NCBI RefSeq assembly: GCF_009834535.1
Contig: NC_045696.1
Location: 79,982,001-80,046,000, forward strand
Origin: Camelus ferus
Taxonomy: Eukaryota
Length of the DNA stretch: 64,000 bases
Reading direction: 5' to 3'
Position 1 is the first letter of the stretch. The number at the start of each line of letters is the position of its first letter. Shown here piece after piece: positions 1 through 39,827 of the stretch. The translations under genes and the position numbers were made by a program. The notes below the pieces were generated by a model that made no database searches, was not told the origin of the DNA, and was given only the letters and a program-made list of their open reading frames with translations.

Positions 1-110
1 GAATATGAAAAAGATTACGTATATATGTATAACTGGATCACTATGCTATACACCAGAAATCAACACATTGTAAAATCAACTATACTTCAATTAAAAAGAA
101 AAGAAAGCAT
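1..110 (+). mobile_element. LINE-1 3' end (lineage-specific family), cut by the window edge
   Basis: ...CTATGCTATACACCAGAAATCAACACATTGTAAAATCAACTATACTTCAAT plus an A-rich tail. The same 3' UTR recurs at ~4.2, 16.0, 37.1, 42.3 and 49.9 kb. Confidence 0.85.
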
Positions 111-567
111 ATCAAACTGAGAAGCATTGAGATAATAAGCATAAAACTTCATATATATTGTATCTGTAAATATTTGGGGGATGTGAATATTTATCTTGAT
201 CATCCCTGAAGAACTCCAGTTTGAAAAAGATAATGAAAAACGTATGTGAGAACAAAAGCTCCAACAAACAAGACTCTTCCAGGGTATAAGCTAAGCACCT
301 TGGAGAGTGCACCACCTACGTTGTTCCCTAGGACATAGCTAAGGAAATAATTTTTCTTACACCCAAGGTCACCCAAGTTCACTAGAAGAATTGAATCTCG
401 CAAGGTACTTAAGTCACTGTTAAGAGTCTTTTATAAACAGGAAAAATTTAGCTCAAAGCATTCAGTGTACTTAAGAAATCTACAAGGTCACAGATCCCTA
501 TGACTATTACCTCCCGTTTGGCTTTTTCATCTCACCGTCAATATCAATTCTAACAACATTTTACATT

Positions 568-1475
568 TGCAATATTGTGATTCATAAGAAATATATAGTT
601 GGTCTTCATCCACAGTTCCTGGCTTAAAGCTTCCAAAATCCTTGGAATTTCCTAAATGTGGAGAGTGATAAAGGTGTCTTTTTTTATATTAATGAGGTGA
701 CGTATGGAAAGCACCAAAGGATGGGGCTGGTTGCCAAAGTAGCAAACAATGTGATTCAAGGGTTGGAACTTTCAATTCCACCCCTTGACTTTCAGGGACG
801 GGGAAGGGACTGGAGGTTGAATCAATCACCAATGGCCAATGATTTAATCAATCATGTCTGTGTAATGGTGCATCCTTAAAAAACCAAAAAGGATGGGGTT
901 CACAGAGCTTTGGGGTCGATGAACACATAGGGATTTGGGAGAGTGGTGAGCCTGCAGAGGGCATGGAAGCACCTCACCCTTTCCCCATGCCCTGCCCTAG
1001 TGTCTCTTCCATCAGGTTCTTCCTGAGTTATATCCTTTTATAACAAAATGATAACCTAGTAAATTCTGTGAGTCACTCCAGAAAATTAATCAATCCCAAG
1101 GAGGGGATCTCGGGAAACTCTGATTTATAGCCAGTTGGTCAGCTGGTAACAACCTGGATTTGTGACTAGTGTCTGAATTAAGTTGTCAAGGAGGGGATCA
1201 TTGGAACTTCTAATTTTTAGATAATCAACAGCTGGCTGATCAGAAGTGCAGGTAACAACCTGGGTTGCAACTGGCATCTGAAGATGTAGGGGGTAGTCTT
1301 ATAGTACTGAACGCTTCACCTGTGGAATCTGATTCCATCTCCAAGCAGACAATGTCAGAATTTAGTTAACTGTAGGACACCCAGCTGGTGTCGAAAACAT
1401 TGTTTGTTGGTGTGGGGAACTCCTGCCCCAACACACACACACACACACATGTTGGAATTGGTCTCAGAACACCAT
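568..1475 (+). mobile_element. Solo LTR, MER21-like
   Basis: ATATTGTGATTCATAAGAAATATATAGTTGGTCTTC...CCTTGGAATTTCC and CACCAATGGCCAATGATTTAATCAATCATG match my recollection of the MER21B/C consensus. Ends approximate. Confidence 0.75.
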
Positions 1476-3589
1476 TTTAACAAATATTAAATTTTCAAGT
1501 AAAAGCTGGTCTTAGTTCCCAAAGCACCTTCATACACATCAGCTCCTTTGATCTTCAACACAACCCCAACTATACGTAGTGCAGTTATTTTCCAGATGAG
1601 AAAACAGTCTCGGAGAAGGAAGGTCAAAAGCACATTGAAGATAAAAATCCAAGTCTTCTGGATCCAAACCTACTTCATCTCCCACTTGCATTTCAAACTG
1701 CATAACAATCCTGAGAATTGTTCAATTCTCTGAGAAAGAGCAAAACTCTTGGCAAGTGCTCCTAAATTTCTTTAGAGCCCCTTGGAGGATTCAGTGCTGC
1801 ATTTTAATCCCTGGGAGGGGAAGAGACGGGTGGGCTGAACTTCTCCTGCGTGAGGCATTAGCAACAGGCTCAGGCTGCAGATGGGTAGAGGGAGGGGAGA
1901 CCAGGGTGCAACGCTCCAAGCAGGGATTAAACATCTAAATCAGAAAGAGAACAGCTGTAGCCCCTTTACGTTAGAGTTTTAAAATTCTGAGCATGCAAAG
2001 AACTATAAAAATCACAAGTAGGCCCTGGATCATAACAGATGAATAAGGGATTTATAATCTTTAAACTGCAAGGAGAATGGCTTACATTGGTACCATTTCC
2101 TATTTTGATTACAATCATTGTCCTGAGAGCAGATTCATGTTGTGCCTTTTCTGGTTCCTTTTGCAATTCATCACAAGGACACAACTGAATGGTGAGGCCA
2201 CTGCACATTCTCTGAAAGTCAATAAAAGCCTATGTGTAACTTCAGATCTCTTTTTTCTTTTTTTTTTTTTTTTTTTGGTTGGTTGGTTTGTCATAATTTG
2301 ATTGGGCAGTTGTTTTCCATTGTGGCCTGTTAGCCATCTCATTAACCTAGAAGGGTGAGATGGTCTGGACAATTAGCTTCCAGAAAATTAAAAAGGTTAA
2401 AGCCAAAAGACTGCTACTCAGTGCTTTTCATAAACTAGCTGGGTTATTAAATTCTGATATCTTGTGCCAGGGTCCCGGACTATAATCGTAAGAAATAGCA
2501 CAAAGCAAGGCTCTTCCCAAATCATTTTCAAACGATCTTCTTCAAAGACTTTCTGGCCATATGTAGTTTATATGTCAATAAGCCTGGGGAAAATACCCAC
2601 CCCACCACTTCCCCACAACATCATTCTACAATAGAATGTCCTTTATTCCTTAGAAGGGACTTTTTTCAGCTCAGTCTGTCTTCCTTTGTATTACAGGAAC
2701 TTCTATAAAATAGGTAAGAACCTCTATAACAACCAAAATTCTCTATTTTTCTAGCAATTCATGAAATGCAGTGTGATGATATCAAAACTCACATGCAAAG
2801 AAACAAATGCAAAAGTTTTGGAACCAGTGCCTCTGGGCTCTAGCCTGGCTATTAACCATTATGTCCTATAGCAGAGCCATCACGGTGTGCACCTACCTGT
2901 ATTATTGTGCTGTATGTGCAACCATCTGGAAAACTATAGCTGCACCAACACAAGAAAAGTGAAAAAAGACAGACATGGATTACGTTACATTTTTCAAATG
3001 TTACTCAAATCCCACCGTTGGGTAAATGCAAGGAGGACATAAAAATCCAGTAATTTCTAAATTTAAAAGGAAACATTAGTTTCTCCTCTCTGTGCTGATT
3101 ATTTTTCTCATTCTTGATCCAGCTAGACTGCCTAGCCTTTTATGGCAAAGAAAATCTATCGAGCATAAGAAACTAGTAGCATGCCCCTCAGCTGACCTAA
3201 CTTTATGGAATTGCACTCCTATCCCTATCACATATATTACACTCCAACTTCTCCTGGGTGCCTTTTATACAAGGTGACATTTGGGATCTGTGGGGAGTTT
3301 CCCCTTGCAGGCTGCAAAGCTTGGGGTAAATTCTACCACATGAGGCTTATCTAGGAGCTCATTAAAGCATTTCCACACATTGCTTTATGATGCATATGGA
3401 AGCCTCAGGAATTCCAGTTGGATATATAAACAGCCTCTTGTTTGTTATTCTAATTGTGGTCATTATACAAATGTACACGAAATGTACACTCTACTCTTCA
3501 TTTGCATGTAAATTGGGCAAGCAGTATTTGAAAAAAACCTCATGTCGCCCACTTCTTTTATCAGTCACTACTCATCCCAGACAACCAAT

Positions 3590-3960
3590 GAACTCATTCA
3601 TTCATCCATTCATTTACTCTGCAAACATGTTCTCTACATCTACTGTGCACTAGGCAGTGTGAGAGGGTAACAGGCGTGGGATATACAAAAGTGATAAATA
3701 GACAGTCCCTCCCCTCAAGGAGCATATTCTAGTGGGGAGAAAAATATAAAGAGATAAATTACAAGTCCTATTTGTTTATTCAGTGGTGGAATTCAGGTAC
3801 AAATAAAATTCTACATCGAGACCCAAGCAGGCAGGTTTAATGGAAATGTTATTTGAGTTGGATTTTGAGGAATGAGTAGGTCATTTCCAAATGGAGACAG
3901 CTTAAAGGACACACTTGACAGGGGAAAGAGCAAAGGCAGAGAGAAAATGTGTGTCAACAG
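3590..3960 (-). mobile_element. L2 3' fragment
   Basis: CATTCATTCATCCATTCATTT tail followed by typical decayed antisense L2 sequence. A second such tail starts near 4300. Confidence 0.55.
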
Positions 3961-3976
3961 AATGCAGTTTTAGAGA

Positions 3977-4267
3977 GACAGACTCATAGACATAGAAAAC
4001 AAACTTACGGTCATCGGGAGGAAAGAGGGCGAGAAGGGATAAATTTGGAGTTTGAGATTTGAAAATATTAACTACTATTTATAAAAATAGATTAAAAAAA
4101 CAAATCTCTTCTGTATAGCACAGGGAACTGTATTCAATATCTTGTAACCTTTAATGAGGAAGAATATGAAAAGGAATATACGTATGTATATGTATGACTG
4201 AAACATTAAGCTGCACACCAGAAACTGACACAACATTGTAAACTGACTATACTTCAATAAAAAAAAA
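3977..4267 (+). mobile_element. 5'-truncated young LINE-1 (3' UTR only)
   Basis: ACAGACTCATAGACATAGAAAACAAACTTACGG...TATAGCACAGGGAACT...ACTGACTATACTTCAATAAAAAAAAA. Confidence 0.85.
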
Positions 4268-5807
4268 GGCTCTGGCTAAGAACATACGGCGACTATCCTT
4301 TACTCACTCATTCATTCATTTATTCACTTAGCAAACATTGGTTCAGCAACTATTATTGTGTTGAGTTAAGTGCTTCATGTGGAAACACAAAATGAAATAA
4401 AACTTGGTCTCTGCTTTTAGAGTCTGATTGAGAAGGAAAAGTAAAACAATAATGGTGCAATGCCTTGAATTCTTTGACTATACATGCACAGGGAGCCTTG
4501 GGAGCCCAGAGGCAAGTCAGAGAAGGCGCAAGGAAGAGAGGGGAGCTGAGGGGTCATTCAGAGCACTGTAGGATTCATGCAAGTTTAGCTGGGCAGCTGT
4601 AAAGTGGAAGGAAAAACATTCCTTAGGCAAGAAAGGGAACAGGTACAAAGATCCAAGGCACCACTGAGGAAAGTCAAAAGTAAAAATCTGTAATAAGGAC
4701 GTTCCAGAGATGTCAGAGAATATGTTAGGAAACTTGTGTGTCTGTGTTGCATACACCCCACCACAGTTGGCCGGGCACGGAACCAGAAAACCTGCAAGAA
4801 TGCAACACCTAGTTCAGAGTCTTCTGAGGAGTTCCAGGCAACTCCCTGCAATTTGTTTTAAATAGGGACAATAGATGTCTGTTATCAACATTCCAGAAGC
4901 AAACTAAAAATTGAACAAATGGCACTGCAAATGTATATGCTCAATATGATTGTGAGGTTCTATGACAGTTACTCAAAATTACAGTATTTTCAAACCAAAG
5001 GCTAGATGTTTAAGGTCAGGATGTCTTGCTTATAAAATAGAACTTTCTGTATCAACTCAGAAAACTCTTTGCTAAAACATTTTTGGCAACAGTAGCAGAA
5101 TTACATTTACCTGGGTTGCTGCCCTTTGACTTTAAGATGACAGGGAAGGTTCCCTCCTTGCCTACATCTCCACGTTTATCCCCAACCAAACATTCACACA
5201 TTCCAGTCCACTGAGCTCCAGTCATAGTAAATGACTTGTGGTTCCTGAAATACAGAGCTGCAGTTTCGTATCTTTTCATATCTTTGCACATATGGTTCCC
5301 AGAACACACTAATTTCTACCTGACCAACTCAGCTCAAGTGCAACTTCCTTGGGGAAGCCTCCCCGTCACCCCTACTCTCCATCTGGGTGGGTGCTACTCT
5401 CATGTGCTCCCACAGCCCCCAGGGAATACCTCTACCACAGCTTTTTCTTCCGTTTACTTGTCATCTTCTCCCACAAGACTGTTAACTCCTAGTGGACAAA
5501 GGTTTTTGTTCTTTGTTTTTTTAATTCCTATATCCCAGCACCCATTCAAGTGCTCAATCAGTGATTGATAAATAGATGAATGACTGAAACAATCAATTTG
5601 TCCTTAGAACAAAACGATTCAGGTTGGAAAAGTTATTGTCATGCATAATTTGAATAGAGAAGACAGTTTTGACTAATCAATAAATTTTTTTTTTGAGTAA
5701 CTCATGGTTAAGGATATCAAGGGTTTTGACTAATTTAAAGAGGCAGATTTTGGCTCAAAGTAGAACTTTCTAACGCCTAGGGCTGTCCCACAAAAGAATG
5801 GCCTATC

Positions 5808-5960
5808 TAGGGGGTAGGTAAATTATGTATGCCTTTGGGCCAAATTCAGCCCACCATCTGTTTTTGTAAATAAAAGTTATGCTGCAGCAGATCCACACCA
5901 CTTGTTCACACATTGTCCACAGCTGCTTTCATACACAAAGGCAGAGCTGAGGAGTGCAGG
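5808..5960 (+). mobile_element. MER58A-like hAT-Charlie MITE fragment
   Basis: GGGCCAAATTCAGCCCACCATCTGTTTTTGTAAATAAAAGTT...GCTGCTTTC...GGCAGAGCTGAG resembles the MER58A consensus. Confidence 0.65.
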
Positions 5961-7819
5961 TCTATGATGACAGATGTACTTTTCTATGACAAAAACACAT
6001 CATACGTTAATTTGTCTTTGACTGATAGTCCTATAATGGGCAGTAATGCTAGCTGTAGAAAAGGAAATCGTCACCTATATAGCCATAGTTTAGGTAATGC
6101 TCAACTTCTAAATACAGTTTATATTCTGAATAATGAAGGAAATACAGTTTCGGTTTCAAGCATCATCAGGGCACTATCATCGGAAGAAGTAAGGAAAGGT
6201 TCAACAGAAGCCAAGGAGACAGTAACCTGACCTGTTGCTGACTCTGCATTTCCCAGCAGACTTCAAATGAGGCTCTCCCTCTGGACCACAGGTATTAATC
6301 AGGGGGCAGTCCTTCATCCTTTGCTGTTCCTTATGAGGCTAAGTGGTCGTAGTGGGAAGTGAGCCTCCTATGAGAAGACCCCTTCGGCTTGCTTTATTCT
6401 CACTGACTCAGCACTGCTGGAGGTCAAGTCTCCAAGGCTGTTGTCCATCCTTTAGCAGGTTTATCTACTAGGAATGAAAAATTCTCAAACTAAAGCACTC
6501 TGGATGAAAAAGAATTCCTTTTCAGAAATTATTCCATTTCATATATTAAAATGACACACCGTGAAACATGTTTGATGTTGAAGTAAAGCCACATGTACAC
6601 ATCCATTTGGTGTTTATTAGGAGAGTTGAAATGTTCACATGCTTCCACGCTTTCACTTCCAGAGGATGCCCCTGTGGGTAGATGAAGGAAGGAGCTGCCA
6701 TATCAGGAAGAGAGAAGGCCTTCCTGCCTCCTGCTACACTGAAGAAGGTATGGCTGCAGGAAATTGGCCAAGAAAGGCAGGTTTGGGGCCAAGACATGCA
6801 TTTACTCCTGCCACGCCATCAGCAAAGCTCAGCAGTCATCTCAGCACATTTCTGGCATTGCCGGGTACCTTGTCCTACAAATAAAGGAGGAACAGGGGCA
6901 AGTCCTAAAAATCCCCATTGTAAAGTGGTTACACAGGTTATCTCCAAAGACATTTACCATCTCTTCTTCAATTATCTCCTCACCAACTCTATCAAGTCCC
7001 AAAGATGCTCAAACATGCAGGCAGCTGGAAAGACCCCAAAATACTTGTGGAGGAAATTATTGATAGCTGCTGTTTACTTTCCAGTGGTCTCATTTATAGG
7101 TTTCTTGTAAATCCTCCTTTCCCTCCTGTTTCTTTATGAAGAGATTCTCTCTCCTTGTTTAGCATGGCTGCTATGCCAGGGAGCTGCACTCTTGCTCAAA
7201 GATTTCTCTTGTTATCAGTCTGGAGGAATTGGCTGCTTTAGGAGGAAAGGGAAGAAATCTCTCCAGCATTATGTAATATAAAGGGAGGATCCTATAAGTT
7301 ACAGCTGCCTCGGCCACTTTGTACAGATATTTGGCGTTTATTCTTTCCTTCCTTCTCCCCCCGCCTTGCCCCTGTGCTGGAGGATACCTGCTGTAATAAA
7401 CAAAAATAATAGAGGAAATTTGTTCCCATGCAGCCTTACTAGAATGCCCCACTGGAAGGAGTGACTGTAGGGCAGGAAGGGAAACATTCGGTCAATGGGA
7501 CTCAGAGTGATGTTCCCTCTTCTGAACTCCCGTGGCACCAACTAGCTGAACCAGTCTCTGGCATTTATCAAATCCTGTTCTGCTCTGGTGCCTGCATATG
7601 ACTGTCTCATCCACTTGAAAAGGGTGTAAAAATTCTTTAAAGTCTGTATAATCCCATATGCTCTCTTTTGGACCACCAATAGCTCCCAGCCCAGGGCCTT
7701 GAATCCTCAAGTCATTTGACGAAAAAAAAAATGGCATGTTAATTTTGAAGCCTGTAAAGTTTTAAGAGTAATCAGAACACAGAAGAAAAGGGGGCAGATT
7801 TTTAAATACTTCCTCACCG

Positions 7820-14729: not shown

Positions 14730-16700
14730 AAAACAGTGATAAAGGAAATTAAAGAGAACACAGATAAGCTGAAAGATATCCCATGTTACTAGATTGGAGG
14801 AATTAACATTGTTAAAATTGTCCACATAACCCAAAGTGATTCCCAGAATCAATGCAATCCCTGTTGAAATCCCAATCTCATTTTCTACAGAAAAAAAAAA
14901 ATCCTAAAATTCATATGGAACCATAAAAGATCCCTAATAGCCAAAGCATCTTGAGCAAGAAAACAAAGCTAGAGGCATCACACTTCCCCATTTCAAAATG
15001 TATTGCAAAGCTACAGTAATCAAAAGCGTATAGTTCTGGCAGAAAAACACACATGGAGACCAATGGAATAGAATAGAGAGTTCAGAAATAAACCTACAGT
15101 CAGCTGATCATCAACAAGGATGGCAAGAACATCCAATGGAGGAAGGATATTCTCTTTAATATACGGTGCTGGGAAAACAAGATATCCTTGTGCAAAAAAG
15201 TGAAATTAGACCTTTACCTTACACCACATAAAAGTCAACTTAAAATGTATTAAAGACTTAAAAGAAAGACATGAAACCATAAAACTCCTAGAAGAAAACA
15301 GGGAAAAAATTTTTGACAGTGGCCTGAGCAATAATTTTTTGGATACAACACCAAAAGCACAAGCAAGCAAAAATAAGTAAATGGAATTGCATTAAACTAA
15401 AAGGCTTCTGCACAGCAAAGAAAACAATCAACAGAGTGAAAACGCAACTTTTCTTGGAAGGAAATATTTGTAAGCCATATATCTGATAAGGGGTTAATAT
15501 CTATAACATATTAGGAATTCATACAGTGTAATAGCAAAAAAAACCAAATAACCCAATTTAAAAATGGACAAAGGACCAGAACAGACATTACTCAAAAGAA
15601 GACATACATATGACCAACAGGTATATAAAAAGATGCTCAACTTCACTAATCACCAGAGAAATGCAAATCAAAACCACAAATCTGTTAGAATGGTCATTAT
15701 CAGAAACAATAGGAATTGGTGAGCATATGGGAAAAAAAGAAAATCTTTGAAGTAGTGTCAGGGATGTAAATTGATGTAGCCGTTATGGAAAATGGTATGA
15801 AGTTTCCTCAAAAAATTAAAAATAGAGCTACCATATGATCCAGCAAGTCCACTACTGGGTATATATCCAAATAAATGAAATAAGTATCTCAAAAAAAAAA
15901 AAAAAAACCTGCATTCTCTTGTTCATTACAACATTATCACAATAACCAAAATGTGGAAACAACCTAAGTGTCCATTTATATTCAGTATCTTATAGTAATC
16001 TATGAAGAAAAAGAATATATGTATGTATATGTATGACTGAACTATTATGCTGTACACCAGAAATTGAGACAATATTGTAAACTGACTATACTTCAATTTA
16101 AAGAAATAAATAAAGTGAAAATGCAGAAAAAAGAAAAAAAAAGAAAGAAAAAAAGAAAATGTAGCATAAACTCCATACAGTGGAATATTACTCAGCCACA
16201 TAAAAGAAATCCTGCCATTTGCAACAACATGGAATGAACCTGGGGGACATGATGTTAAGTGAGATAAGCCAGACACAGAAACACAAATACTGTATGATCT
16301 CACTTATATGCAGAATGTCAAATACTCAGCAAACTCACAGAAGCAAAGAGTATAAATGGTGGTTACCAGGGGTAGGGGGAAGTGGGGAATGGGGAAGTGT
16401 TGGTCAGAGGGTACAAAGTTTCAGTTATACATAATGAATGAGCTTTGGAGATCTAATGTACAACAATGCGACTATAGTTAATAATTCTCTGTTGAATACT
16501 TGAAATTTGCTGAGAGAGTGGATCTTAAGTGCTCTCACTACAAAAAGAAAATGGTAACTATGCAAGATGACGGGTATGTTAACTAACTTGATTTTGGTGA
16601 TTATTTCATAATGTGTATGTATATCACATTATCAAGTTGTACACCTTAAATATATACAATTTTTAATTGTCTTTTATATCTCAAAAAAGCTGGAAAATTT
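14730..16700 (+). mobile_element. Old LINE-1 (L1MA-like): ORF2 3' part plus 3' UTR, degenerate
   Basis: Decayed ORF2 motifs (KEIKE...KDIPC...INIVK; DQWNRIE; ELPYDPA) with stops and frameshifts. Ends CTCAAAAAAGCTGGAAAA. Confidence 0.85.
15977..16155 (+). mobile_element. Young L1 3' fragment nested inside the older L1
   Basis: Interrupts the host L1 right after CCTAAGTGTCCATT. Contains TATGTATGACTGAAC...TGTACACCAGAAATTG...ACTATACTTCAAT and an A-rich tail. Confidence 0.75.
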
Positions 16701-17124
16701 TTAAATAGAAACTGCCTCCCCCAAAAGAATATAACTTGATTTAGCAGAAAGTGGTGAACTGAATCACTACAAACATTGCTCAAATATAAGCATCTTTCAC
16801 CCCATCCACAAATAATTTACTCAGACCCTTACCTTCTCCAAGTCTCTAAATAAATAAACTTTTATCAGCTATTCTGACTTTTAAGGTGCCTAATTCCTGG
16901 CATTAACCCTCTTGCAATTCCCTCAGCAACCTGTTCATGGTCCTAGAACTCGTCCTAATCTCTGGAAATCTAAACCACCTCCAGCTTTTAACTACCTTAG
17001 CTTTTAGTTACCTTAGCTTTTAATTTCAGAATTTCCTCAAAAAGAATAAACAGACAAGTCTGCTATTCTCACTTCTGGACGTATTCTTATGTTAAGTGTC
17101 GTCTGTGACACTCCACGTACAGTC

Positions 17125-17847
17125 TGTAACAGTTATTAAGCAAAATAAAGAAGAAAAGCTGAAACAGCCAGGCTACTTACCAAGGACCTTTAGAAGGTCT
17201 CCTCTAAATCCCTACTCTTCTTTCTGTCCTCACCAAGAGGATGTGGGAAGACGAATTAGAGGAAGAGAGCGGAAGCCGAAGACTGTGAGGCTCCAGACCA
17301 CGTACACACTTGCACCTCACAAGCACTTGCACCTGCGCCTCACAAGCACTTGCACCTGCGCCTCCCGCGACCTGCTCGTGAGCGGCGCCCCGAGACTGCG
17401 CATGTCTGCGGAGCATGCCCAGTTCCTTGCACCGGATGTGGGCGGATCACGGAGAGGATGCGCCTGCGGGCTGACCTGTGGGCTGGACCCGGGCAAGGGA
17501 AGCTCCTCACCCTTCCCTGTTCTTGGATTGTGCGCTCTGCCCACTGTTCCCTAGCCGTTTTCAAGGACGCAGGCTTGAGAGAGCGGTGTGGTGTTGAGAC
17601 CATCTGGACAGTGTACGTGACTGAACCCAGGTAAGGCCTCTGTAAGAACTGAGAATTTGGCGGGCAGGGACGGAGATCTCGTTGTGCAGCCGCCAAAGCA
17701 AGCCTCCTTTGTAAGCTTCCTTGCTCGTTAAACTCGCTACCTGCCAACCTGCAGTGATCTCCTCTTTTTTTTCGGTCTCTCTCTGCCCTCCGTGTATGGG
17801 GGCCAGTTTCAAATATCACAGGGGAAATTTGAGGTTGTGAACCAACA
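17125..17847 (+). promoter_or_regulatory. ERV 5' LTR, CpG-island-like
   Basis: About 30 CpGs by hand count in 17300-17800. Shares TGTTGAGACCATCTGGACAGT and CTGAACCCAGGTAA with the 3' LTR. Ends CA at 17846-17847, just before the PBS. Start approximate. Confidence 0.75.
17307..17363 (+). repeat. 23-bp tandem repeat in the LTR U3 (about 2.5 copies)
   Basis: CACAAGCACTTGCACCTGCGCCT exact at 17318-17340 and 17341-17363, with partial CACTTGCACCT at 17307-17317. Confidence 0.9.
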
Positions 17848-17849
17848 AT

Positions 17850-17867
17850 TGGTGAGTCAGCCAGGGG
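17850..17867 (+). other. Retroviral primer-binding site, tRNA-Arg type
   Basis: TGGTGAGTCAGCCAGGGG, 2 nt after the LTR end. 15/18 match to TGGCGAGCCAGCCAGGAG, the complement of the tRNA-Arg(ACG) 3' end as I recall it. Confidence 0.7.
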
Positions 17868-17876
17868 TCGGAAGAA

Positions 17877-20800
17877 ATGGGCCTTGGGAAAGAGGCATGG
17901 GGTGCGTAGGGGGGGGGGGGGTCTGAGATGGTCATTTATCTCTATGTGGGGAAGGGAGGCCTGTATGTTAGATGTTTGTGCACCGCCAAGTACCAGGACT
18001 CCGGGAAAAAGCCAGCTGCTTTCACGCATTTGATGAACTGCGCAAAGCGCACTGCAGTAAAGAAGGGAAATGAACGCTGCTGCCGTGGGCTGGCCACCGA
18101 TGACCAGCTAGAGGCTGAAGCTCAGGTTAGAAAGTTGGAAGAATAGATGAGGTTAGAAAAGGATGTGAAGTGTCCACTGCTCTGCTAGCTTCTGGGCTGG
18201 CAGACAAGGTGGATGAGCCAGATAGTAATTTGGAGACCTTAACACGCAGTTATCTGAAGCTAGGAAGTCTGAGCACTAATAACAGAGCCTGATTGGGACA
18301 CCAGAGGTAGAATCTCTGAGAAAGTGAGGAGTGCAAAAGGAGGATTTTGTGGCGATTGACAGTGAAACGGACAGAACGCCTCGTGCTGTCCAACCCCTAA
18401 AACAAAGGAAGCTGAAACCACAGCAACACGACCAGCCAGCAGTCCCCAGTTTGGGAAATGATGGGAGAGTATTCTCCCACTGAGTTTATTGGAATAGCTA
18501 CTAAGTTCTACCAAAAGGCCAGGGAAACTATCCAGGAATGGTTAGTGGGGCTCTGTTATATACAGGGGACAATGGCATTTCTCTGGGCAGGAGGAAGAGA
18601 AAATGAGCAACATCACAACAGACCCTGCCCTCCAGCAGCGCTGGCAAGGTGCTAGTTCAAGGAATTCATTCCTTGGACTATTGTAGTCTGCAGGGAGGTT
18701 TGGTCCAATGAAAGGGATCTCCCTAGGCATGTGGGACCCTAGAAATCTATAGAGGAGGTACAACAAATTCTCAGGGATTTGAGACAAGCCATCTACAACC
18801 CTGTCTTTGAAGGTCTTGATTGGGCCACATTCACTGCAGGAATCAAAGTCAAGATATTCCCATCCACCCCAGTACCTAGTATGGGAAACTGGTATCTATG
18901 TTGAGCCCAGTCATGGGAGGAGACATTTATGATATTGGGCGATCCATCACTGGTCTGGGGGAAACTGACATATCCTGGGAACAGGTACGGGTTGTGGGAA
19001 AGACTCAAGACAGGGAACTCAAGAAGCCAAAAAGCTTTTACAATCACCCGTAAAGGGTTTGGTAAAAGTAACCTAGAAACAAATGTGGTTTGGACTTGTT
19101 GCTGCAGGGGCTTCCCCTTAAAAGACAGGCAGGCAGCCCAACACTGTGTTGATCAGTGTGTTGAAAGCTTTAAACCCGAACAGTTCAAACCTGCCTCACC
19201 TGCCCCTACTATCTCTGATGCCCTGCTTACTCCAGCAGAAGCTTCAGGGATTCACACACCACCACCCCCCACTAACCCCAACCCCGGTATAAGATGCAAG
19301 CTAAGATTGCCTCCAGGTGAGGGCCATTGGTGCTGATCAAAGGAAGGCCTCATGTTGAGCTCCGATTGAGTGTTCCTCAGAAATAAACAAAAGATGATGG
19401 CTCTGGTTGACACTGGAACAAAATGTAATATAATGGTAACCCTCAGAAGTGGCCATTGATGGTTATGGAGGACAAATGGTTATGGTCAGAAAGATCCCTT
19501 TGGCACTGCAAATTGGGTGTTCTCTGCACTGGAATACAAGGGTTTTAATTTCTTCAATATCAGAGAACATATTGGACATTGGTAACCTACAAGGTCAAAT
19601 TCTGAAAACGTCTATCAGTGAATTCTACCTTCAGGTAGAGTAATCAAGCCAGTGCTGAGGGGAAATGCCAACTAAGAACCAGCTAGTCTACTGCCCCCTC
19701 TTAGAGTGGAAACTCGTACAATATAAATTACCAAGGACAGAAATTAAATAGGAGAAACTATCCAAGAACTGCACTGAGTGGGTATTGTATGTCCTCCCCA
19801 TAGTGCTTTCAACAGCCCAGTATGGCAGGTGTAAAAGGCAGATGGCTCATGGAGGGGTGACCAGGGACTACCAAGAATTGAACAAGGTAGTGCCCCCCCC
19901 CCCATCCATGCAGCTATGCTCAGCATTGCCACCATCTTAGATACCTTGGCCACTGCCATGCTGTACCAGACTTAGCAGATGCTTTTTTCAGTATAACCCT
20001 GGCCACTGAGTCACAAGATCATTTTGCCTTCATATGGGAAGGGTGACAATGGACCTTTAAGGAGCTTCCCCAAAATGACCAGCATAGCCCCACCAAATGT
20101 CATGGGATGGTAACTCGAGATCTGTCACTGTTACCTTTTTATGCATCAGTAAAATAAGCCCATTACCTTGATGATATAGTGTTAATGTGAATATTTGCCT
20201 CTGCCGCAGAATGCTCTGCAGGCTTCGCTGGAACATCTGCAAGGGAGAGGATGGCCAACAAACTCAGTGAAAATTCAAGGCCCAGACACCACCACCAAGT
20301 TTTGGGGAGTCGTTTAGCGGGATAAGACGTGACTTGTCCCAAAAGCTGTAATTGATAATGTGCAAACCTGTCTAACCCCTAAGAACAGAAATACAAGCAT
20401 TTAGGGCTTTAGGGGTTTGGGAAGACTTTTACTTCCCACCTGGCACAGTTCCTCTATCCCTTATACAACCTGGTAAGGAAAGGACGCATGTGAGACAGAG
20501 GATCAGAGCAGCAAGCTGCTGTTGAGAAGGCAACAATGCTAGTGAAAAAGATTTAAAGCCCTGGGCATCGTCTCCCACCGCTGGAGTTAGATGTGTCTGT
20601 GACTCCGTAAGGTGTGGGTTGGGTACTATGGCAGAGACAGTGGAAGGAGAGAGTAACCTGAAGATTTTGGTCCCAGCTCTGGGAGGAGGCAGAGACCTGA
20701 TAGACCCCAAAGAGCAAAAGCTACTGACAGTGTACACAGAGCTTCTCCAATTAGAGCCTCTTGCAGAGGAACAGCATATCATGGAAAAAATTTCTCTTCC

Positions 20801-21825
20801 TATTAGGGGGTGGGTTGAGAATATGGTCCATTGACCCACCTCTGCCATGGCTCAAACTCCCAGTTTGACTAAGTGACATGCTTATTTGCAGCAGAGGAAC
20901 TGTCTGCAGCCCACTGTCTCTAGAAATGCAGGTGCTAGTAGGCCCCATAGAGTATGTAGATCCTCTAAATGCCCCTGCCCCTGTTCTGGTGGCAGTCCTG
21001 CAGCCTGTAGGGAGGGAGGGGGGAAATTCCCACTGATGTCTGGTATACTGACGGGTCTAAAAGGGGCAAACAACTCATGCACATGGACTGCAGTCACTAT
21101 TCAACCCAACACTGACACCATCTCGATGAAAACAGGAATAAAATGCAGCAGCCAGTGGGCTAAATGCAGAGCTGTTTGGTGATCACTCAGGAGCCCTGAC
21201 TGTTGACTCTGCAGATGGTTGGGCTGTTCTAAAGGGATTAACCCTATGGCTTGGACAGTGGGACAATGAGGGGTGAATAATCATGAATAAGCCCTCACAG
21301 GGTCGGGATATGTGGGAAGACATTTGGGTTTGCTTCCAAGAGCCTAAGCTGTCCTGTCTCCCACTTCCCAGCTCATAAAGCACTTGACACTCCCTGGCAA
21401 TCAGGAAGCTGATTTCCTAGCTGGGATACAAGCCCTAGCAACTGACCCTTCAGTAGATACAGCAGACTGGGTATGGCCTGTTGCCAAGGATGCTGTATTG
21501 CTCCTGAAATACAGTGACTTGGTTAATGCAGTAACAGCATGTCCTGTGTGTTCTAAGCAATGCCTAAGGCAACTGCCAAAGGAGTCTGGGGCTGTCTACT
21601 GGGATCCTCAACTGGTGAGGGATGGGCAAACTGGTTACATTGACCCCCTCCCTCTGAGTGGTGGTTCTAAATATGCTTTGGATCTGTGTGGACACTGTGT
21701 CTGAGCTAATTTAAACTTTCCCCTGCCACTGCACAAACCAGGCTGCCACTGTTAGGGGATTAGAGAAATCGAGTAGCTTGTATGGGTACCATCATCGAAT
21801 AGAAAGTCACATTTCAAGGGTCATG
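17877..21825 (+). pseudogene. ERV gag-pro-pol, multiply disrupted
   Basis: Putative Gag start ATG-GGC (MG) at 17877. Protease ALVDTG 19400-19417. RT FNSPVW 19808-19825, DLADAFFSI from 19969, HYLDDI 20161-20178. RNase H WYTDGS 21041-21058. Integrase CPVC ~21540, YIDPLP ~21635, SHFKGHEV ~21807-21830. Many stops and frameshifts. Confidence 0.9.
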
Positions 21826-22222
21826 AGGTCATTGAGAGGATGTGACTGCTGTTGGACTTTTGAGCTGAACCCAGGAGTTAAAGGCTCCTCATCTCCTCCC
21901 CTGTCTTAGGGATGTACTTTTGCCTGCCATTTTCACAACCAGAACTGTTTTCAAGGACACAGCCTTGAGAGAGCACTGTGCTGTTGAGACCATCTGGACA
22001 GTACGCATTCCTGAACCCAGGTAAAGCCTCTATATAAAGTTTTAAGACTGGTGGGTGGGTGTGGAGACCTACTTGTCTTGAGGCCACCCAAGCTTGCTTA
22101 TTAAACTCACCACCTACCAGTCTGGAGTGACCTGCTTCCTTCTTTAGTCTCTCCTTGCCCTTGGTGTCCAGGGCCCAGTGTCTGATTTCACTCGGGGAAA
22201 TTACCAAGTTTACAGAACAACA
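21826..22222 (+). mobile_element. ERV 3' LTR, 5'-truncated
   Basis: Colinear with 17445-17847. TATATAAA at 22031-22038, ATTAAA at 22100-22105, terminal CA at 22221-22222. Confidence 0.85.
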
Positions 22223-25200
22223 CCCCAGCACCTGACTTTGGGGCTGACACAAAATAGGCACTCAATGAATGGTGGCTGAAGGAAGGGATGGAGAGAAGGA
22301 GAAAAGGGGAGGGGGAGAGGGGCAGCAAGACGGCAGGGCACTGACACCTGCCAGGCTCTGTGACTTGGGTGCAAGTTTGCCTCCACTTCTAGATTTTGAG
22401 CTTAAGAACAAAAACCATAATCTAGAATTATTTTGATACTCTCCCCACCAAAATGCCTAACACAGAATCAAACACATAGTGACCATTCAATAAATGTTCA
22501 CTAAATTGAATTTCTTCAGTGAAGTTAGACTGCTTTCTTCTTTCACTTTTAGGAAGGCTAATGTGTAGGTTACCAAACTTTTTAAAACCCACAGATTTTT
22601 GTAGATGGGTAACTTTTAAATTCAAAATTATAATGATTTCAGTAGTAGTAGTAGCACTATTCCTATTACTACTGCTACTGTTCCTACCTCTTTTGCCCCC
22701 TTAAAGATTCCCATGGGTAAAGAAGACTGAAGTCTTTCAAAGACCCATAGCTAAGGCAACCAGCCTTCACCTTCTCTCTAGCGCACCAGCAAGAACTAAT
22801 TCCCTACCTAGGGGCGGTGAACAGAAGCATTATCCCATCTAGAATGAGAAAACCGGGCCCTCGGGACGCAGAGGGCTTCGAAGCTGAGCCCGCTGAGGTA
22901 CATCAATTTGAGGAAGATTTAGATGCTCTACCCTGTGCTCTCTCTCTGTCAGAAATGCATCACACTGAGATGAGAAGGGAGCCTAGCAATGACAGCAAGC
23001 ATCGGGCATGAGGTCAGTTGGCATAATCTGTCCTAGATAATGTGAAGTATCAAGATGGCAACCAGGTCTCTGGAGCTGGCACACCTTATTAAGAACAAGA
23101 GATTAGAAAGAAGCTTTGCATTTAAAAACAGGTGGATTTCTCTTAATTTCTAGGGAAATTAGGAATGCCCAGATGCTGCTGCTAATCGAATTGACTTTCC
23201 TTACCTCGCGTACTGCAAGGTTGATGCTGTGTCATTTGTGCTTTATAAAACTCCAGAATCCTTCAGCTCTCTGATCAGTAACAGCCCAAGTAAACTGGAG
23301 CTGAAGAAGCTCCTTTGTCCACATATCCCACCATCGTCCACTTCCCCTCTTCTGCTCTGCACTGAGCACTCTCTGACTGAAAGGCAGTCATCCATAGAGT
23401 CCAGAAGGCCAACATGGGTAATGTGTTGTCTCCCTTTGCAAAATGAATGGAATCGCAAGCTATTACCCAATCTAGCAGCAAGCAGTTTTAAAGATCTTCA
23501 GCCAGCCTCCTAGGTGATAATCAATGCAAAGAATTCATTGATTAATTCAACAAACTTTCCCTAAGCATCCACGTTATATCAGGGATTAAGCTTTCAGAAG
23601 TGATGGACAGTTCATCACCAAGAGTTTATGATAAGAGGCCATGGGCCTGGAACTCCCATTCACTGAGGCCAGCAAAGTAGTTCTGTCAAAGGTAGGCTGT
23701 GCTATCTTCCTTCTCACACTGGCAAGACAGAAAGAGGATGCTCTGCAAAATGCCTGTAATGGACTTTGAAATAAGGTTTTCTAAATCTTGTGACTATCGT
23801 GTGAAAAGCCTATTCATATTTTGTTTTAATTTAGAATTAATTGATCATAGACAGATAGACACATATTTTTAATATTGTACAATTGTTAACCCTATTCTAG
23901 CATTTCTCCATTTGTAAATATACTGGATGCCTCAAAATGTAGAAATGGCTCTGGCATCTCTGAGAGTACAAATATTAAAGATAGGGTGAAACCATGGAAA
24001 TGACATCATCGTTTTCTAGCACTTAAATCATCACAAAATAACTACCCTTTACTTTTAAATCTCCACTAAAGGTTTCTTATTGACTCTCTTTATAATGGCA
24101 TGATGGCATTTCACTGTGGTTTGAAATTGTATTCTGCTGCACTTTAATCTAAATCCCTCCTGCATCAATTTCACTCCATTCTTTCTTGACCTATTGGTGT
24201 AAATAGAAAAAAAAAATCATTTACCATCTCTCATACTGGCTGTTCCTTACCTTTTTCGCAGTGTATGTGGACAAAGTACTTTGCTTAGCACAGATGCTGA
24301 ACAAATATTGCTCAGATTTAACCAATGAAATCAAGTGCATTTATATACCAAAAAAAAAAAAAAAATACATTGGCTATTGAGCAAACTACTTCTTCCAAGA
24401 CACTTTATGTATATTACTTTACAACATTCCTGTAAACTTGTTTTTATTATCCCCATTTACACAGCTGAAAAAACTGAGTCCTAGAGAGGCTCAGTATCTT
24501 GCCCTAGGTCACACAGCTAGTGAATTTTAGAATTGAGACTTTTGCCCAAGTCTGTCTGGCCTGAAAGCCCTGGTGTTGGCTTCAGGCTAGTAGGTCACGT
24601 CTCACCTTTGGTCCCAGGGTTGGATTTGACTGCTTTTAATTGCCGAGAGACTCCACATGCGCTTTCTAATTAAAACAGTTCTTAACCAGGAACAACTCTG
24701 CAGAGAATTTGAAAAAAACGAAGAGGAAATCTGGAGAGGTCAGAGCTTTGAAATGTTTTCTCATCATATTTCTTGAAAGTAATTGCTCAGAAAGATAAGG
24801 TAGTACTTACTTCCAGTAAAACTGTGACAGTCCCAGAAATGCTGACTCACTTGTAATGGGACATCATTCCTGGAACCATGACCCATATAAAGGGGCCTGT
24901 CAGAGCTCTAGCAGACATGAAAGGGCCTCTGTGATCCTGGAACCTCTTCTCCTTCACTTCAGTCAGAGTGTGCACAGGACACCATCTGTCAGCTTAAAGC
25001 TCACGTGAAACTGTAGTAGAGAACCCAGCATTACTCAGGTTGTCTCCTAAAATGTGTAGCTACCAGGACATTTTTTTCTTTAAAATGAACGAAATTTGAA
25101 ATGTGTCCTTTACTATTTTCATATTTCCTTTTTTGGATTATTTTACCCTGCTTCATTTCCCAGCAAGTCATTGTTACAGAGTTCTGCCCTAGATTAGAGC

Positions 25201-28200
25201 AGGAAGCAGAGCTCTGGCCCTCTCTTTCCAAAACCCTTGCCATGTAATTTCTAATATTGCTCTGGCCAAGCCTTTTAAAGTTTCATTTCCACTCTATCAC
25301 TTCTCATGCTCTCTTCAGTACTCAGCCTTCAACCCACTATTCCCCTCACTACAGGAAAATGGACTCATTCATGCACCTCCAAAGAGTCGTGTTGCATGGA
25401 TGTTTGCATTCCTTATTTATTTGATCGCTGCAATACGTGATACCATTCACCATTCCCTCCTTGAAACTTTTCTATCCCTGGACTTCCTTGGTATAATTGT
25501 CTTCTCTTTTTGTTTTCCTCCTATTTGTCCAATCTTCCTCATTTTCATTCATATAAATGCTTTCATACCACTCATCCTTCTTCTTTCTGCACCTTAAATG
25601 TTAATCATTCATGGGATTCTGCTTCTGCACTTTTAACTACACTCTTCCTAGGTGATCTCATCCTCAAGACTTCAGATGTGCCCGTTATACTATGTCTGCC
25701 AAATACTATAATCACAGTGAAGGCAAGGATCACACCAATCTTGGCCTGGAGAACAGAAACTAATTCATAGGTGTTTGTTGAATGCATTAAGTATCTGTCT
25801 CCAGCCCAGGTCGTCCTCCTGAGCCCCAGACAATAAATATGTGTATATGTGCATGTAGGTATACAGATTATATACCTCCGGTAGGGCTACTCCACCTGAA
25901 TGTCCTACAGGCATCTCATATTTATCTTATTCAAAAATAGCTATTCTTGACTGGCCCCCAACCTCTTCCTTACCTTTCATTCTCTATTTTAGTAAATGGC
26001 ACCATGCAAATCAGACACCCTGGAGATTGTCTTTATGACTCCCTTTTCACCTCACCCCATACCTAATTATTCATCAAACCCATTTAATTTTCTCATGTAA
26101 ATCTATCAATGCTATCCTTTCTGTTCCATCCACTCACCCTGCCATAACCTTAGTTCAGCCCTTCAACGTTATGCAGCTACCATGGCCTCCCTCTCTTGCT
26201 CTCTCTTCAGCCCCTGAACACCTCAGTGCCGCCTGTACACTGCTGTGAGAATGTTTTTTTCAAAAACAAACCCAATCACATGCAGTTACATATCCAATAT
26301 TAAAAGCCCACGAATTTTTCCTTTCTCTGTGCTTAAAAGCGCTGCAACAGGCACCTTTCGTGAAGGACTCACTCAGGGCAGTCGCAGCCGCGCCCTGTGA
26401 CAGGATTCAGCCGACCTCCTCTAATGGGGATCAGAGCCCTGGGTCAAGAGTGGCCTGGATTCTCAACGCTTTGTTCATGCTCGGGCAGTGGTGCCTGAGC
26501 CACAATCCTTGCCAATATATTTATCTTGAGTAGTGCTTATTTCACTACTTAAAAATTATTGCTAGGATCCCTCAGGCTAGTTAAAATGAACCTTCTAGTG
26601 CTAAGTGAGATGGCTGAGAGTTAAATGTTCGCAGAGCTACCTGAGTAGTGTCTTTCAAATGCTTATGAACCTCGTGTGGAGTGTGTATGTCTGGTATTAG
26701 CAGCCTGCCCCTGGAGGTATGCGCCTGGAGGTAAAAGGCACACGTATGTTTTACGCTTTCTATATTGAATCATTTTAATCTAAATTACAGACAATATAAC
26801 GCCCTATTTTGTGGGGCCTTACATGCATGCCTAATTTGCCTACCGTCTAATTAAGTAGAATCAGTACATACTCAACCCTTGGCATTCTTGCCTTAATGCT
26901 CAAGACAAGAATGGATATGCAACAAATGTTTTGTTAATGAATCAGTGAGTGACTTTACTAAACCATTAGTTATAAGGGCAAAAGTTTTGGATGGGAACTC
27001 AGAATTCATTTCATCTATCCAGGTGTCAATCTTCCATTTCTCTGATAGGAGCTGAACCATATGAAAATGCCATCTTCAATGTTGAAAAACGCACAAGCTC
27101 TGGCAATTTTATGTGGTCCAGTCTCCCATGATGCTTCCAATACACCTTCAGATAAACAGAGGGAAACTAGTTTAAAGCACTTTCAAGAATCAAGTTCTAT
27201 TCAAATGCGTAATTGCGAGGTCCCAGGAGGAGCAGATCCTTACTTCAGTGCTGCCCGTGCCTCCATCCGCCTTAATATTCTCTTTTTTTTTTTTTTTGAA
27301 GTATAGTTGATTTACAATGTTGTATTAGTTTCTGGTATTCGGTAGGGCCCTGCAGTTGCCATGAAGTTGTCACAGATCAATTAAATCCTGAGCGCTTCTG
27401 AGGTGACATTCAGATTAGTGGGAGGGTGAAAGAAAATCAATTCTTCCTTTTCAGTCTGCAGGTGCCGGCGGATTTCCTGGTGTGAGGAGTGAACTCTCAT
27501 TTCAAACACAAAGACAAAGATGGCCTCTCCTTTCAGGGCCACTAGCTGATTGCTGAGGTGATGCAGGAAAGAATAGAAACCCCAGGGGTCTTGCCTTACT
27601 GTTAAGGGCACTGACACAAAAAGACCTCTTTAGGAGTTAGAAAGGGGAGAGGACAGAATTCCTATTTCACCAATCCTTAAAGTAAAATTACCTTGCGAAT
27701 TTGGGCTTCAAACAGGGATAAGAGCACCAGTCTTTATTATCTGGCCTACACGTGAAGGAAAGAAATGTATTTTGAGAAAAAGTGTCACCATGGAGTGGGG
27801 AGGGGAAAGAAAGACGAGACAGGGTGAGGCGAAGTGAATTCCTCCGTTTAATTAGCAATCACCCCTGACCTGCCAGACGCAGCTAATGTTATTCCTGAAT
27901 GGTTGAGTCAAAGCAAAAGAGCAGGTAATTGGACAGCATGCACCGGAGCATTGCGAAGCATTGCATTTCCAGGGTTTGCACTGAGAGCAAACTGGATATA
28001 TGGGCTATGCTTTTAATACATTCTGCTTTCTAATTAGCAATCAGGGCTGATTTGTCAGTCATTCTACCTATAATGCATAAAGCACTGGAAAGCAGAGGGG
28101 GGAAAAAGCAAGTTCAGAAAATCAATTATGCTTATATTTATATCCCCTCAAGACTGAGGCGTTGCAAAAACTGCCGAAATATTATCTTCTCTTTACAAAG

Positions 28201-28645: not shown

Positions 28646-29380
28646 TGAAACCAAGCAGGATCCTGCAGAGACCTCCCAGGTACAGAAGTCCCTACATGTC
28701 CCCCATTTTTTGTTTGAAAAAGGCTTTGGGGAGGGGAGTGGGTATAGCTCAGTGGTAGAGCACATGCCTTGCATGCATGAGGTGCTGGGTTCAATCCCCA
28801 GTACCTCCATTTCAAAAAAAAGGAAAGAAAAAAAAAGGCTTTTGTCTCCTAGGCCTTCCCTGAGTTCCAAAGAGCAGGCTTAAGCAGTTACTAATTAAGT
28901 AATAGAAGGCAGAAACAATGGAAAAGCAGTCAAGCAAGAACAGTAATGGTAGCTTAAACAATAGTTCAGATATAAAACAGACCTAGTTCCTCCTCAGGGG
29001 ATATACATAACAATCTGATGCATATTTCTGAGTTATTCTGCAGAAACTAAGACCATCACCCCACCCCCCAACTCCACTCCCTCGTCAGCCCAGGTGGAGT
29101 AGACCCCAGACTGATTGGAACCAGAAGGATGATGATTAAGATTTCTGAAACATTGGTAGTGTTACCTCACTTCCAGCCAATTAAAAGAAAGTTCACAGCT
29201 GCAACCCTCACCCTAAAAGTTGCCTTTAAAAACCCTTCTCTGAAAGCCATCAGGGAGTTTGGGTCTTTCAAGCACCAGCTGCCTATTCTCCTTGCTTGGC
29301 ACCTTCCTGTGCTTTCCTTCACCACAGCCTGGTGTCAGTAGATTGGCTTTGCGAGCAGACCCAAGTTTGGTTCAGTAATA
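28646..29380 (+). mobile_element. ERV1-type LTR preceded by its polypurine tract
   Basis: PPT AAAGAAAAGGGGGGA (28630-28644), then TGAAACCAAGC... ending ...TTTGGTTCAGTAATA. Internal TTTAAAAACCC TATA-like region. Interrupted by a SINE. Confidence 0.65.
28728..28836 (+). mobile_element. tRNA-derived SINE (camelid vic-1 type)
   Basis: Box A TAGCTCAGTGG, box B GGTTCAATCC, A-rich tail. TSD AAAAAGGCTTT at 28717-28727 and 28832-28842. Confidence 0.85.
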
Positions 29381-39808: not shown

Positions 39809-39827
39809 CAGGCAGCAGGGGGCGCTA
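39809..39827 (+). promoter_or_regulatory. Candidate CTCF binding site
   Basis: CAGGCAGCAGGGGGCGCTA. The core CAGCAGGGGGCGCTA matches the CTCF consensus and retains its CpG. Confidence 0.6.

What the first reader, a model, noticed from the sequence alone, without database searches (positions are those of the whole stretch)
17280..17847. Twin LTRs with opposite fates: the 5' LTR looks like a CpG-island promoter
Seen: over the alignable ~400 bp the 5' LTR has about 17 CpGs (hand count) and the 3' LTR (21826-22222) only 2. Paired sites include GATGCGCC/GATGTGAC, GGACGCAG/GGACACAG, TGGCGGG/TGGTGGG and AACTCGC/AACTCAC. The 3' LTR keeps TATATAAA (22031) and ATTAAA (22100); the 5' LTR reads TGTAAGAA (17641) and GTTAAA (17727) at those positions. 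An NRF1-like TGCGCATG lies at 17397-17404. Established: LTRs are identical at integration and methylated CpGs decay quickly. Inference: this LTR has long been unmethylated in the germline and may be a co-opted TATA-less promoter or enhancer. GC-biased gene conversion is an alternative, since some differences look like A-to-G gains.
Basis: partly seen in the sequence, partly recalled or inferred. Interest (0 to 1): 0.72.

Follow-up and report, generated by a model that had tools for sequence, protein, structure and literature searches.

The report
Old retroviral LTR stayed CpG island
The front-end repeat of an ancient, broken endogenous retrovirus has kept its CpG sites while its rear twin lost nearly all of them, most likely because the front end stayed largely unmethylated in the germ line; this fits a known kind of repeat-derived CpG island, and any promoter activity is untested.

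Summary
The asymmetry is real. Over about 400 alignable bases the 5' LTR has 17 CpG and the 3' LTR 2; CpG faces TpG/CpA 10 times one way and never the other (p=0.002).

Two corrections. The 3' LTR is cut short: integrase codons run straight into it at about 21830. So the most CpG-rich 214 bases (17233-17446, with the NRF1-like cluster) have no twin, and the paired part alone misses the CpG-island threshold (o/e 0.56).

CpG retention slopes about 600 bases into the leader and broken gag start. There is no AT-to-GC excess at other sites (19:15), and the left flank has background GC. Simulations favour reduced CpG decay over GC-biased gene conversion alone by about 3-10 to 1; equal decay never fits.

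Best reading: an old LTR that stayed largely unmethylated in the germ line and now forms an orphan CpG island. Promoter activity, co-option and a target gene are not shown: no reads were laid and no host exon was found. Old hypomethylated LTRs are already described in cattle sperm. A new, cleanly controlled member of a known kind.

The parts
17233..17446 (+). CpG-rich block with no counterpart in the 3' LTR (16 CpG, GC 0.62, o/e 0.79); likely the upstream U3 part of the 5' LTR. Left edge uncertain: TG starts at 17242 and 17437
   Evidence: composition; GC step from 0.38 to 0.62; no second copy in the window; LTR origin inferred
17307..17364 (+). 23-base tandem repeat, 2.5 copies, 94% matches; duplicates an NRF1-like half site
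17328..17470 (.). Cluster of 7 NRF1-like matches (up to 3 mismatches to a recalled 12-base motif), including TGCGCATG at 17397; about 5 after collapsing tandem and overlapping hits; none is a perfect site
   Evidence: 7 of 16 window matches lie here; mean 0.8 in local shuffles, 0 of 1000 reach 7
17447..17848 (+). 5' LTR, part alignable to the 3' LTR (70-79% identity by setting); 17 CpG, o/e 0.56; reads TGTAAGAA and GTTAAA where the twin has TATA and poly(A)-like words; ends in AACA
17631..17636 (+). Candidate splice donor inside the LTR (CAG|GTAAGG); untested
   Evidence: scored with a recalled weight table
17851..17868 (+). Primer-binding-site position (TGG two bases after the LTR end); overlaps a candidate donor TTG|GTGAGT at 17852; tRNA not identified
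   Evidence: sequence
17175..17180 (-). Candidate splice donor on the minus strand in the left flank (TTG|GTAAGT); untested
17849..18450 (+). Leader and start of a gag-like region with sloping CpG retention (o/e 0.51, then 0.33, then 0.06 beyond); all three plus frames are broken by stops
   Evidence: CpG:GpC 16:42 vs 24:169 in the rest of the interior, p=0.013; 11/11/14 stops in 17900-18500
17877..21830 (+). Decayed gag-pro-pol remnant with many stops and frame changes; RT around 19950-20230; RNase H and the first part of integrase up to 21830; the rest of integrase and anything downstream is missing. gag and protease assigned by position only
   Evidence: RVT_1 E=0.0017, below cut-off; MLV RT E=3e-5
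21829..22222 (+). 3' LTR, cut at its 5' end and joined directly to integrase codons; 2 CpG, o/e 0.09; TATATAAA at 22031, ATTAAA at 22100
17228..17232 (+). Possible left target-site duplication (4 of 5 bases match 22223-22227); not discriminating
   Evidence: one search lists 12 such near-matches between 17150 and 17460; flank test not significant (12% of random places score as well)

Best explanation
The 5' end of an ancient, broken provirus has kept its CpG sites across about 1.2 kb (17233-18450) while its truncated 3' LTR and interior decayed to background, most likely because this end stayed largely unmethylated in the germ line, which would make it a repeat-derived orphan CpG island. Steps. 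(1) Shown: twin LTR homology, one-sided CpG loss, a peak in the unpaired upstream block and a slope into the leader. (2) Shown: the 3' LTR lacks that upstream block and abuts integrase codons. (3) Inferred: the block is the LTR's own U3, and the 3' copy lost it after insertion, since a provirus copies its 5' U3 from the RNA's 3' end (textbook). (4) Inferred from simulation: CpG transitions in the 5' LTR ran about 2.5 times the ordinary rate (90% range 1-5.6) against about 17 times in the 3' LTR, so protection was partial or began after insertion. (5) Inferred: factors binding the upstream block (NRF1-like and ETS-like words) keep the chromatin open; NRF1 is itself blocked by methylation, so it may be a result as much as a cause. 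(6) Untested: weak TATA-less transcription from the island, perhaps both ways; I put this at about 40%, and selected host function at about 15%. Modest gene conversion on top of low methylation is compatible with the data.
For: CpG vs TG/CA 10:0, and 9:0 and 8:0 under other settings. The 3' LTR matches the interior's decayed level (p=1.0) while the 5' core (p=0.0003), upstream block (p=0.0001) and leader (p=0.013) exceed it. Two other LTR-like repeats of the window are decayed, o/e 0.14 and 0.11 (their LTR nature judged by eye). Slope 0.79/0.51/0.62/0.51/0.33/0.06 resembles the 'sloping shores' of hypomethylated islands (PMC4509998, passages). Simulations, all numbers matched: slowed decay 134 and 152 of 20000, conversion alone 13 and 50, both 32 and 94, equal decay 0. 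The element is old: K2P 0.29-0.33 outside CpG (0.20-0.36 over settings). Takai-Jones thresholds are met in 219 windows of 500 bases spanning 17058-17865. NRF1-like cluster 7 vs 0.8 expected. In cattle, hypomethylated LTR elements were old and enriched near start sites (PMC5928411, passages).
Against: No methylation, chromatin or start-site data were seen. No reads were laid, so RNA start, strand and splicing are open. No host coding exon turned up among 249 stop-free stretches of 60 codons or more; only L1 and DDE transposase families passed cut-offs, though short exons would be missed. No third DNA copy was found (-58/68), so substitutions are not polarised. The advantage over conversion alone drops to about 3:1 with a narrower prior, and the combined model fits nearly as well. 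CpG:GpC between the twins alone is only p=0.066. The paired core alone is below the island threshold (o/e 0.56). The upstream block is not proven to be LTR. The left flank shows no clear shore (3 CpG in 233 bases). At least one 5' CpG (17726, facing TA in the twin's ATTAAA) is probably a gain.
Confidence: 0.6

Rival explanations
1. The block 17233-17446 is not this element's U3 but a separate CpG-rich piece (a host element or another repeat). It is the true unmethylated centre; the provirus starts near 17437 and its 5' LTR and leader are only the island's shore.
For: The block has no twin. A TG start at 17437 fits an LTR of about 410 bases. CpG density peaks in the block and falls away through the LTR. 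TSD tests do not fix the left edge. Hypomethylated repeats in cattle overlapped or lay near islands (PMC5928411, passage).
Against: The 3' LTR is demonstrably cut at its 5' end, so the 5' LTR must extend left of 17447 by some length. GC steps sharply at 17233 with an AT-rich flank beyond. The starts at 17242 and 17437 resemble each other (72% over 25 bases), which suggests repeat origin. No host gene was found nearby.
Confidence: 0.18
2. GC-biased gene conversion at a recombination hotspot kept and created CpGs in a normally methylated 5' LTR.
For: GC is 0.55 vs 0.48 between the twins; all strong/weak counts lean the 5' way (38:28, 19:15); the TATA and poly(A)-like words differ by A-to-G. 13-50 of 20000 conversion-only simulations match. 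Conversion is stronger in hypomethylated regions in many mammals (PMC11161765, passages; no camelid word found in its main text).
Against: No count is significant (p 0.19-1.0). Conversion-only runs that match the CpG numbers predict a median strong/weak excess of 17-18 against 4 seen. Left-flank GC is 0.377 against a window median of 0.383.
Confidence: 0.14
3. The element is a chimera: the 5' LTR and leader came by recombination or conversion from a younger copy, so they simply had less time to decay.
For: Two sequences alone cannot tell 'unmethylated for a while' from 'arrived later' (inference). One 88-base block is 85% identical against about 72% overall. Recombinant ERVs are common (PMC5753468, passage).
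Against: The CpG-keeping zone is itself broken: stops in all three frames, TATA and poly(A)-like words absent, 6 doubly decayed sites. Retention fades gradually. No long intact relative appeared among 90 protein hits; the three longest are unrelated, a PKD-domain, a PAN-domain and a Wolbachia protein.
Confidence: 0.06

Closest known systems
Old hypomethylated LTR elements in cattle sperm and soma (PMC5928411; passages seen)
   Same: Old LTR-class repeats that are hypomethylated and CpG-rich; NRF1 sites enriched in sperm low-methylated regions.
   Different: Those were measured by bisulfite sequencing and are enriched near annotated start sites. Here methylation is inferred from sequence, no gene is known nearby, and the twin LTR serves as an internal control.
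Repeat-associated CpG islands with sloping shores (PMC4509998; passages seen)
   Same: An island seeded by a retrotransposon, with a graded effect on flanking CpGs; LTR elements are involved in 8% of human repeat islands.
   Different: That work measures present methylation, mostly for L1-carried and Alu islands; here the slope is a record of CpG loss over tens of millions of years, and is clear on one side only.
Orphan CpG islands (PMC11170920, passages; PMC12582260, parts 1-2 of 6)
   Same: An island with no known start site; transposons and gene conversion are both named as possible origins.
   Different: PMC11170920 masked repeats, so such sites were left out. PMC12582260 finds LTRs make up only 1.3% of island bases (0.2% in islands with start sites) and treats repeat islands as mostly young; this one is old.
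Unequal rates of 5' and 3' LTRs (PMC3048862; passages seen)
   Same: 3' LTRs evolve slightly faster than 5' LTRs.
   Different: That paper's main text has no occurrence of 'CpG' or 'methylat'; here the difference is almost wholly CpG.
NRF1 at unmethylated retrotransposon promoters (PMC12420836; abstract and outline seen)
   Same: A methylation-sensitive factor acting at unmethylated retroelement promoters in the male germ line.
   Different: Young, active mouse elements under methylation defects; here a dead element with imperfect sites and no binding data.

Membership tests
CpG island | At least 200 bases, GC over 0.5, o/e over 0.6 (Gardiner-Garden) | tested here: met
   17179-17870 and 17887-18183; three other short stretches of the window also pass
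CpG island | At least 500 bases, GC 0.55, o/e 0.65 (Takai-Jones, thresholds recalled) | tested here: met
   219 windows within 17058-17865, best o/e 0.71; needs the unpaired upstream block
CpG island | Unmethylated in the germ line | not testable with these tools
   inferred from CpG retention only
Endogenous retrovirus (provirus remnant) | Two LTRs in direct orientation | tested here: met
   (E=2e-41); the 3' copy is truncated
Endogenous retrovirus (provirus remnant) | Retroviral pol between the LTRs | tested here: met
   RT matches MLV RT at E=3e-5; RVT_1 weak; integrase-type motifs read
Endogenous retrovirus (provirus remnant) | Polypurine tract and intact TG start before the 3' LTR | tested here: not met
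   integrase homology runs to 21830, where LTR homology begins: a deletion
Endogenous retrovirus (provirus remnant) | Target-site duplication | tested here: inconclusive
   12 near-matches; flank test not significant
ERV3 / ERVL-type class | Class III pol and a named LTR family | tested here: inconclusive
   The resemblance is recalled. Best solved-structure match is MLV RT, foamy-type entries weaker; no repeat library is at hand; PMC5753468 lists candidate families but no sequences were seen
Exapted LTR promoter | Transcription start inside the LTR | not tested
   no reads laid; run list only
Exapted LTR promoter | Splicing into a host gene or defined RNA | tested here: inconclusive
   candidate donors at 17631, 17852 and 17180; no host coding exon found; no predicted protein from two LTR-overlapping frames
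Exapted LTR promoter | Sequence constraint across species | not testable with these tools
   no orthologous DNA obtained
GC-biased gene conversion tract | Excess of AT-to-GC changes outside CpG | tested here: not met
   19:15, 19:16, 13:12 at non-CpG-prone sites; unpolarised and low power
GC-biased gene conversion tract | Raised GC spilling into flanking DNA | tested here: not met
   left flank 0.377 vs window median 0.383

The most novel reading that the evidence does not exclude
The LTR's upstream U3 block, with its locally duplicated NRF1-like sites, is itself the signal that has kept this spot unmethylated for 50-100 million years, and the twin that lost the block is a natural deletion control. 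The island now drives an unannotated spliced RNA in one or both directions (donors sit on both sides) and is shared with other even-toed ungulates, a selected LTR-born CpG-island promoter, which human surveys find to be rare.
Probability: 0.15. Interest if true: 0.62.

Novelty: new member of a known kind. Interest (0 to 1): 0.36.

Why it matters
Twin LTRs start identical, so the pair records germline methylation history with a built-in control. The case shows that an old LTR can hold island-level CpG, against the usual assumption that repeat islands are young. It also warns that LTR-divergence dating is skewed when only one end loses CpG. If the upstream block is what protects the site, it is a compact test case for how orphan islands arise. 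Without RNA, methylation or a target gene it remains one locus of a described class.

Tried and rejected
Third DNA copies: no genome is held. The metagenome scan gave 10 loci, none with LTR homology. The viral scan gave 6 loci matching at the seed only. Protein-guided scans confirmed none of 17 viral and none of 287 genome candidates.

RNA: 8 rows on record as RNA, from 2 studies, hold 24-55% of the words of 17240-17900. In one study the contig sets are 780-939 million letters against 1717-1942 in rows holding everything, so shares of 0.39-0.47 are about what genomic background would give (my reading of that column). In the other study (178-242 million letters, shares 0.24-0.55) they exceed background, but these are top-ranked rows and the species label differs from the full holders. 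Counted as a lead only; the rows flagged 'small share' are ignored.

Protein searches with the RT piece and two LTR-overlapping frames found nothing. Rfam found nothing in 16500-23000.

A local alignment that ran left into integrase gave a spurious strong/weak excess of 53:30, p=0.015; it vanished on the true homologous part and is rejected. The single ETS-like word is common in local shuffles (106-299 of 1000) and TGCGCATG alone appears in 22 of 100 whole-window shuffles. The test of L2-type flank continuity was not significant.

Literature: three searches returned no paper, and searches listed none on this locus. One search's terms could not match primed LTR names, so it is weak. No supplements were read.

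Full report
Observation. The two LTR-like repeats align over 17447-17848 and about 21829-22222 at 70-79% identity depending on gap settings. The 5' copy has 17 CpG and the 3' copy 2. In the main alignment 16 of the 17 are aligned: 10 face TG or CA, 2 face TA, 4 face other pairs. Neither 3' CpG faces TG or CA (sign test p=0.002; 9:0 and 8:0 with two other settings). This is the CpG-densest 600 bases of the window: 33 against a median of 4 and a next best of 19. Normalised to GpC, the twin-to-twin contrast alone is weaker (p=0.066).

Anatomy. Between the repeats lies a decayed gag-pro-pol. The RT piece matches MLV RT (E=3e-5) and Pfam RVT_1 weakly. A stop-free RNase H/integrase stretch found 90 protein hits, nearly all short unnamed fragments. 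Laid on the window, 2 of the 94 stored proteins match up to 21830, and one of them continues for 37 residues with no window match. LTR homology starts at that point. So the 3' LTR is cut at its 5' end, and the rest of integrase and the polypurine tract are gone. The 214 bases left of the alignable part (17233-17446) are the CpG peak (16 CpG, o/e 0.79), hold a 23-base tandem repeat and have no second copy in the window. I infer they are the U3 part that the 3' copy lost. The left edge is not fixed: 12 near-matches to a target-site duplication exist, and a flank test was not significant. The family name was not determined; a class III resemblance is recalled only.

Age. Divergence outside CpG is K2P 0.29-0.33 (0.20-0.36 over settings). 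With recalled rates of 1.5-2.2e-9 per site per year this is roughly 50-120 million years. One of 12 aligned relatives, P0001 (84% identical, on 15 contigs), shares a gap at the RNase H-integrase junction that the other 11 lack. It may be this insertion in another species; no DNA for it was available.

Extent. CpG o/e runs 0.12, 0.38 | 0.79, 0.51, 0.62 | 0.51, 0.33 | 0.06, 0.14, 0.18, 0.12, 0.07 | 0.09 from the left flank through the 5' LTR, leader, interior and 3' LTR. The upstream block, the core and the leader each exceed the interior (p=0.0001, 0.0003, 0.013); the 3' LTR does not (p=1.0). Retention therefore covers about 1.2 kb and fades inside a gag-like region broken by stops in all three frames. 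The region meets both common island definitions, but the paired core alone (o/e 0.56) does not.

Cause. At sites that cannot be or become CpG, strong-over-weak differences are 19:15, 19:16 and 13:12, none significant, and the left flank has background GC. I simulated twin pairs from random start sequences. All summary numbers were matched by slowed CpG decay in 134 of 20000 runs, by conversion alone in 13, by both in 32 and by equal decay in 0. With a narrower conversion prior the counts were 152, 50 and 94. Matching runs put the 5' CpG rate at about 2.5-fold and the 3' at about 17-fold the ordinary transition rate. Rates and priors were my choices, so the odds are rough. Six TG/CA-discordant pairs show that the 5' LTR also lost CpGs, and the CpG at 17726 is probably a gain if the twin's ATTAAA is the older state. 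Low methylation and mild conversion can go together (PMC11161765, passages).

Promoter question. Seven NRF1-like matches cluster in 17328-17470, against 0.8 in local shuffles, with 0 of 1000 reaching 7. About five are independent, none is perfect, and the motif was chosen after the fact. Candidate donors lie at 17631 and 17852 on plus and 17180 on minus. No host coding exon appeared among 249 stop-free stretches. I read 1-7800 and 9000-42200 by eye and saw no clear gene; the rest was only scanned. RNA runs hold part of the stretch, but no reads were laid, so start, strand and splicing are open. Promoter activity is plausible and unshown; co-option is further away.

Comparison. Old hypomethylated LTR elements are reported in cattle (PMC5928411, passages). 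Repeat islands with sloping shores are reported in human and mouse (PMC4509998, passages). Germline methylation history is read from CpG o/e in PMC5793779 (passages). LTRs are rare within human islands (PMC12582260, parts 1-2 of 6). Unequal 5' and 3' rates are noted without CpG analysis in PMC3048862 (passages). My searches listed no paper on this locus or on one-sided CpG retention between twin LTRs; the library is partial and supplements were not read. Earlier notes of this scan describe similar islands in an L1 and a retrocopy of the same genome; they are unchecked AI notes and not support.

Verdict. A real, internally controlled case of an old LTR end that escaped most CpG decay, best explained by low germline methylation (0.6). 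It is a new member of a known kind. Interest 0.36; about 0.6 if the block proves to be a conserved, active promoter.

Noticed in passing
window 39813-39825: A strong CTCF-like word (motif recalled) inside a short CpG-rich stretch, 39856-40073 passing the 200-base island test; the second CpG-densest part of the window.
   Followed up: partly
window 21348-21701 and protein P0001: P0001 (84% identical) shares a gap at the RNase H-integrase junction absent from 11 other relatives: a possible orthologue of this insertion in another species.
   Followed up: partly
window 17557-17644 vs 21947-22034: An 88-base block is 85% identical between the LTRs against about 72% overall; chance, old conversion or constraint.
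   Followed up: no
window 17239-17263 vs 17434-17458: Two similar TG-bearing starts, 72% over 25 bases, 195 apart; may mark an internal U3 duplication or two nested LTR starts.
   Followed up: partly
window 580-1470 and 29050-29380: Two other LTR-like repeats (judged by eye), CpG-poor (o/e 0.14, 0.11); used as in-window controls.
   Followed up: partly
window 28738-28809: tRNA-Ala call by ARAGORN followed by an A-rich tail; looks like a tRNA-derived SINE.
   Followed up: no
window 26269-26498 and 48396-48626: Two more short stretches pass the 200-base island test.
   Followed up: no
window 43542-44287, 51492-51820, 61956-62322: L1 RT, DDE_1 transposase and L1 ORF1 remnants are the only Pfam hits above cut-off among the 249 stop-free stretches.
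   Followed up: no
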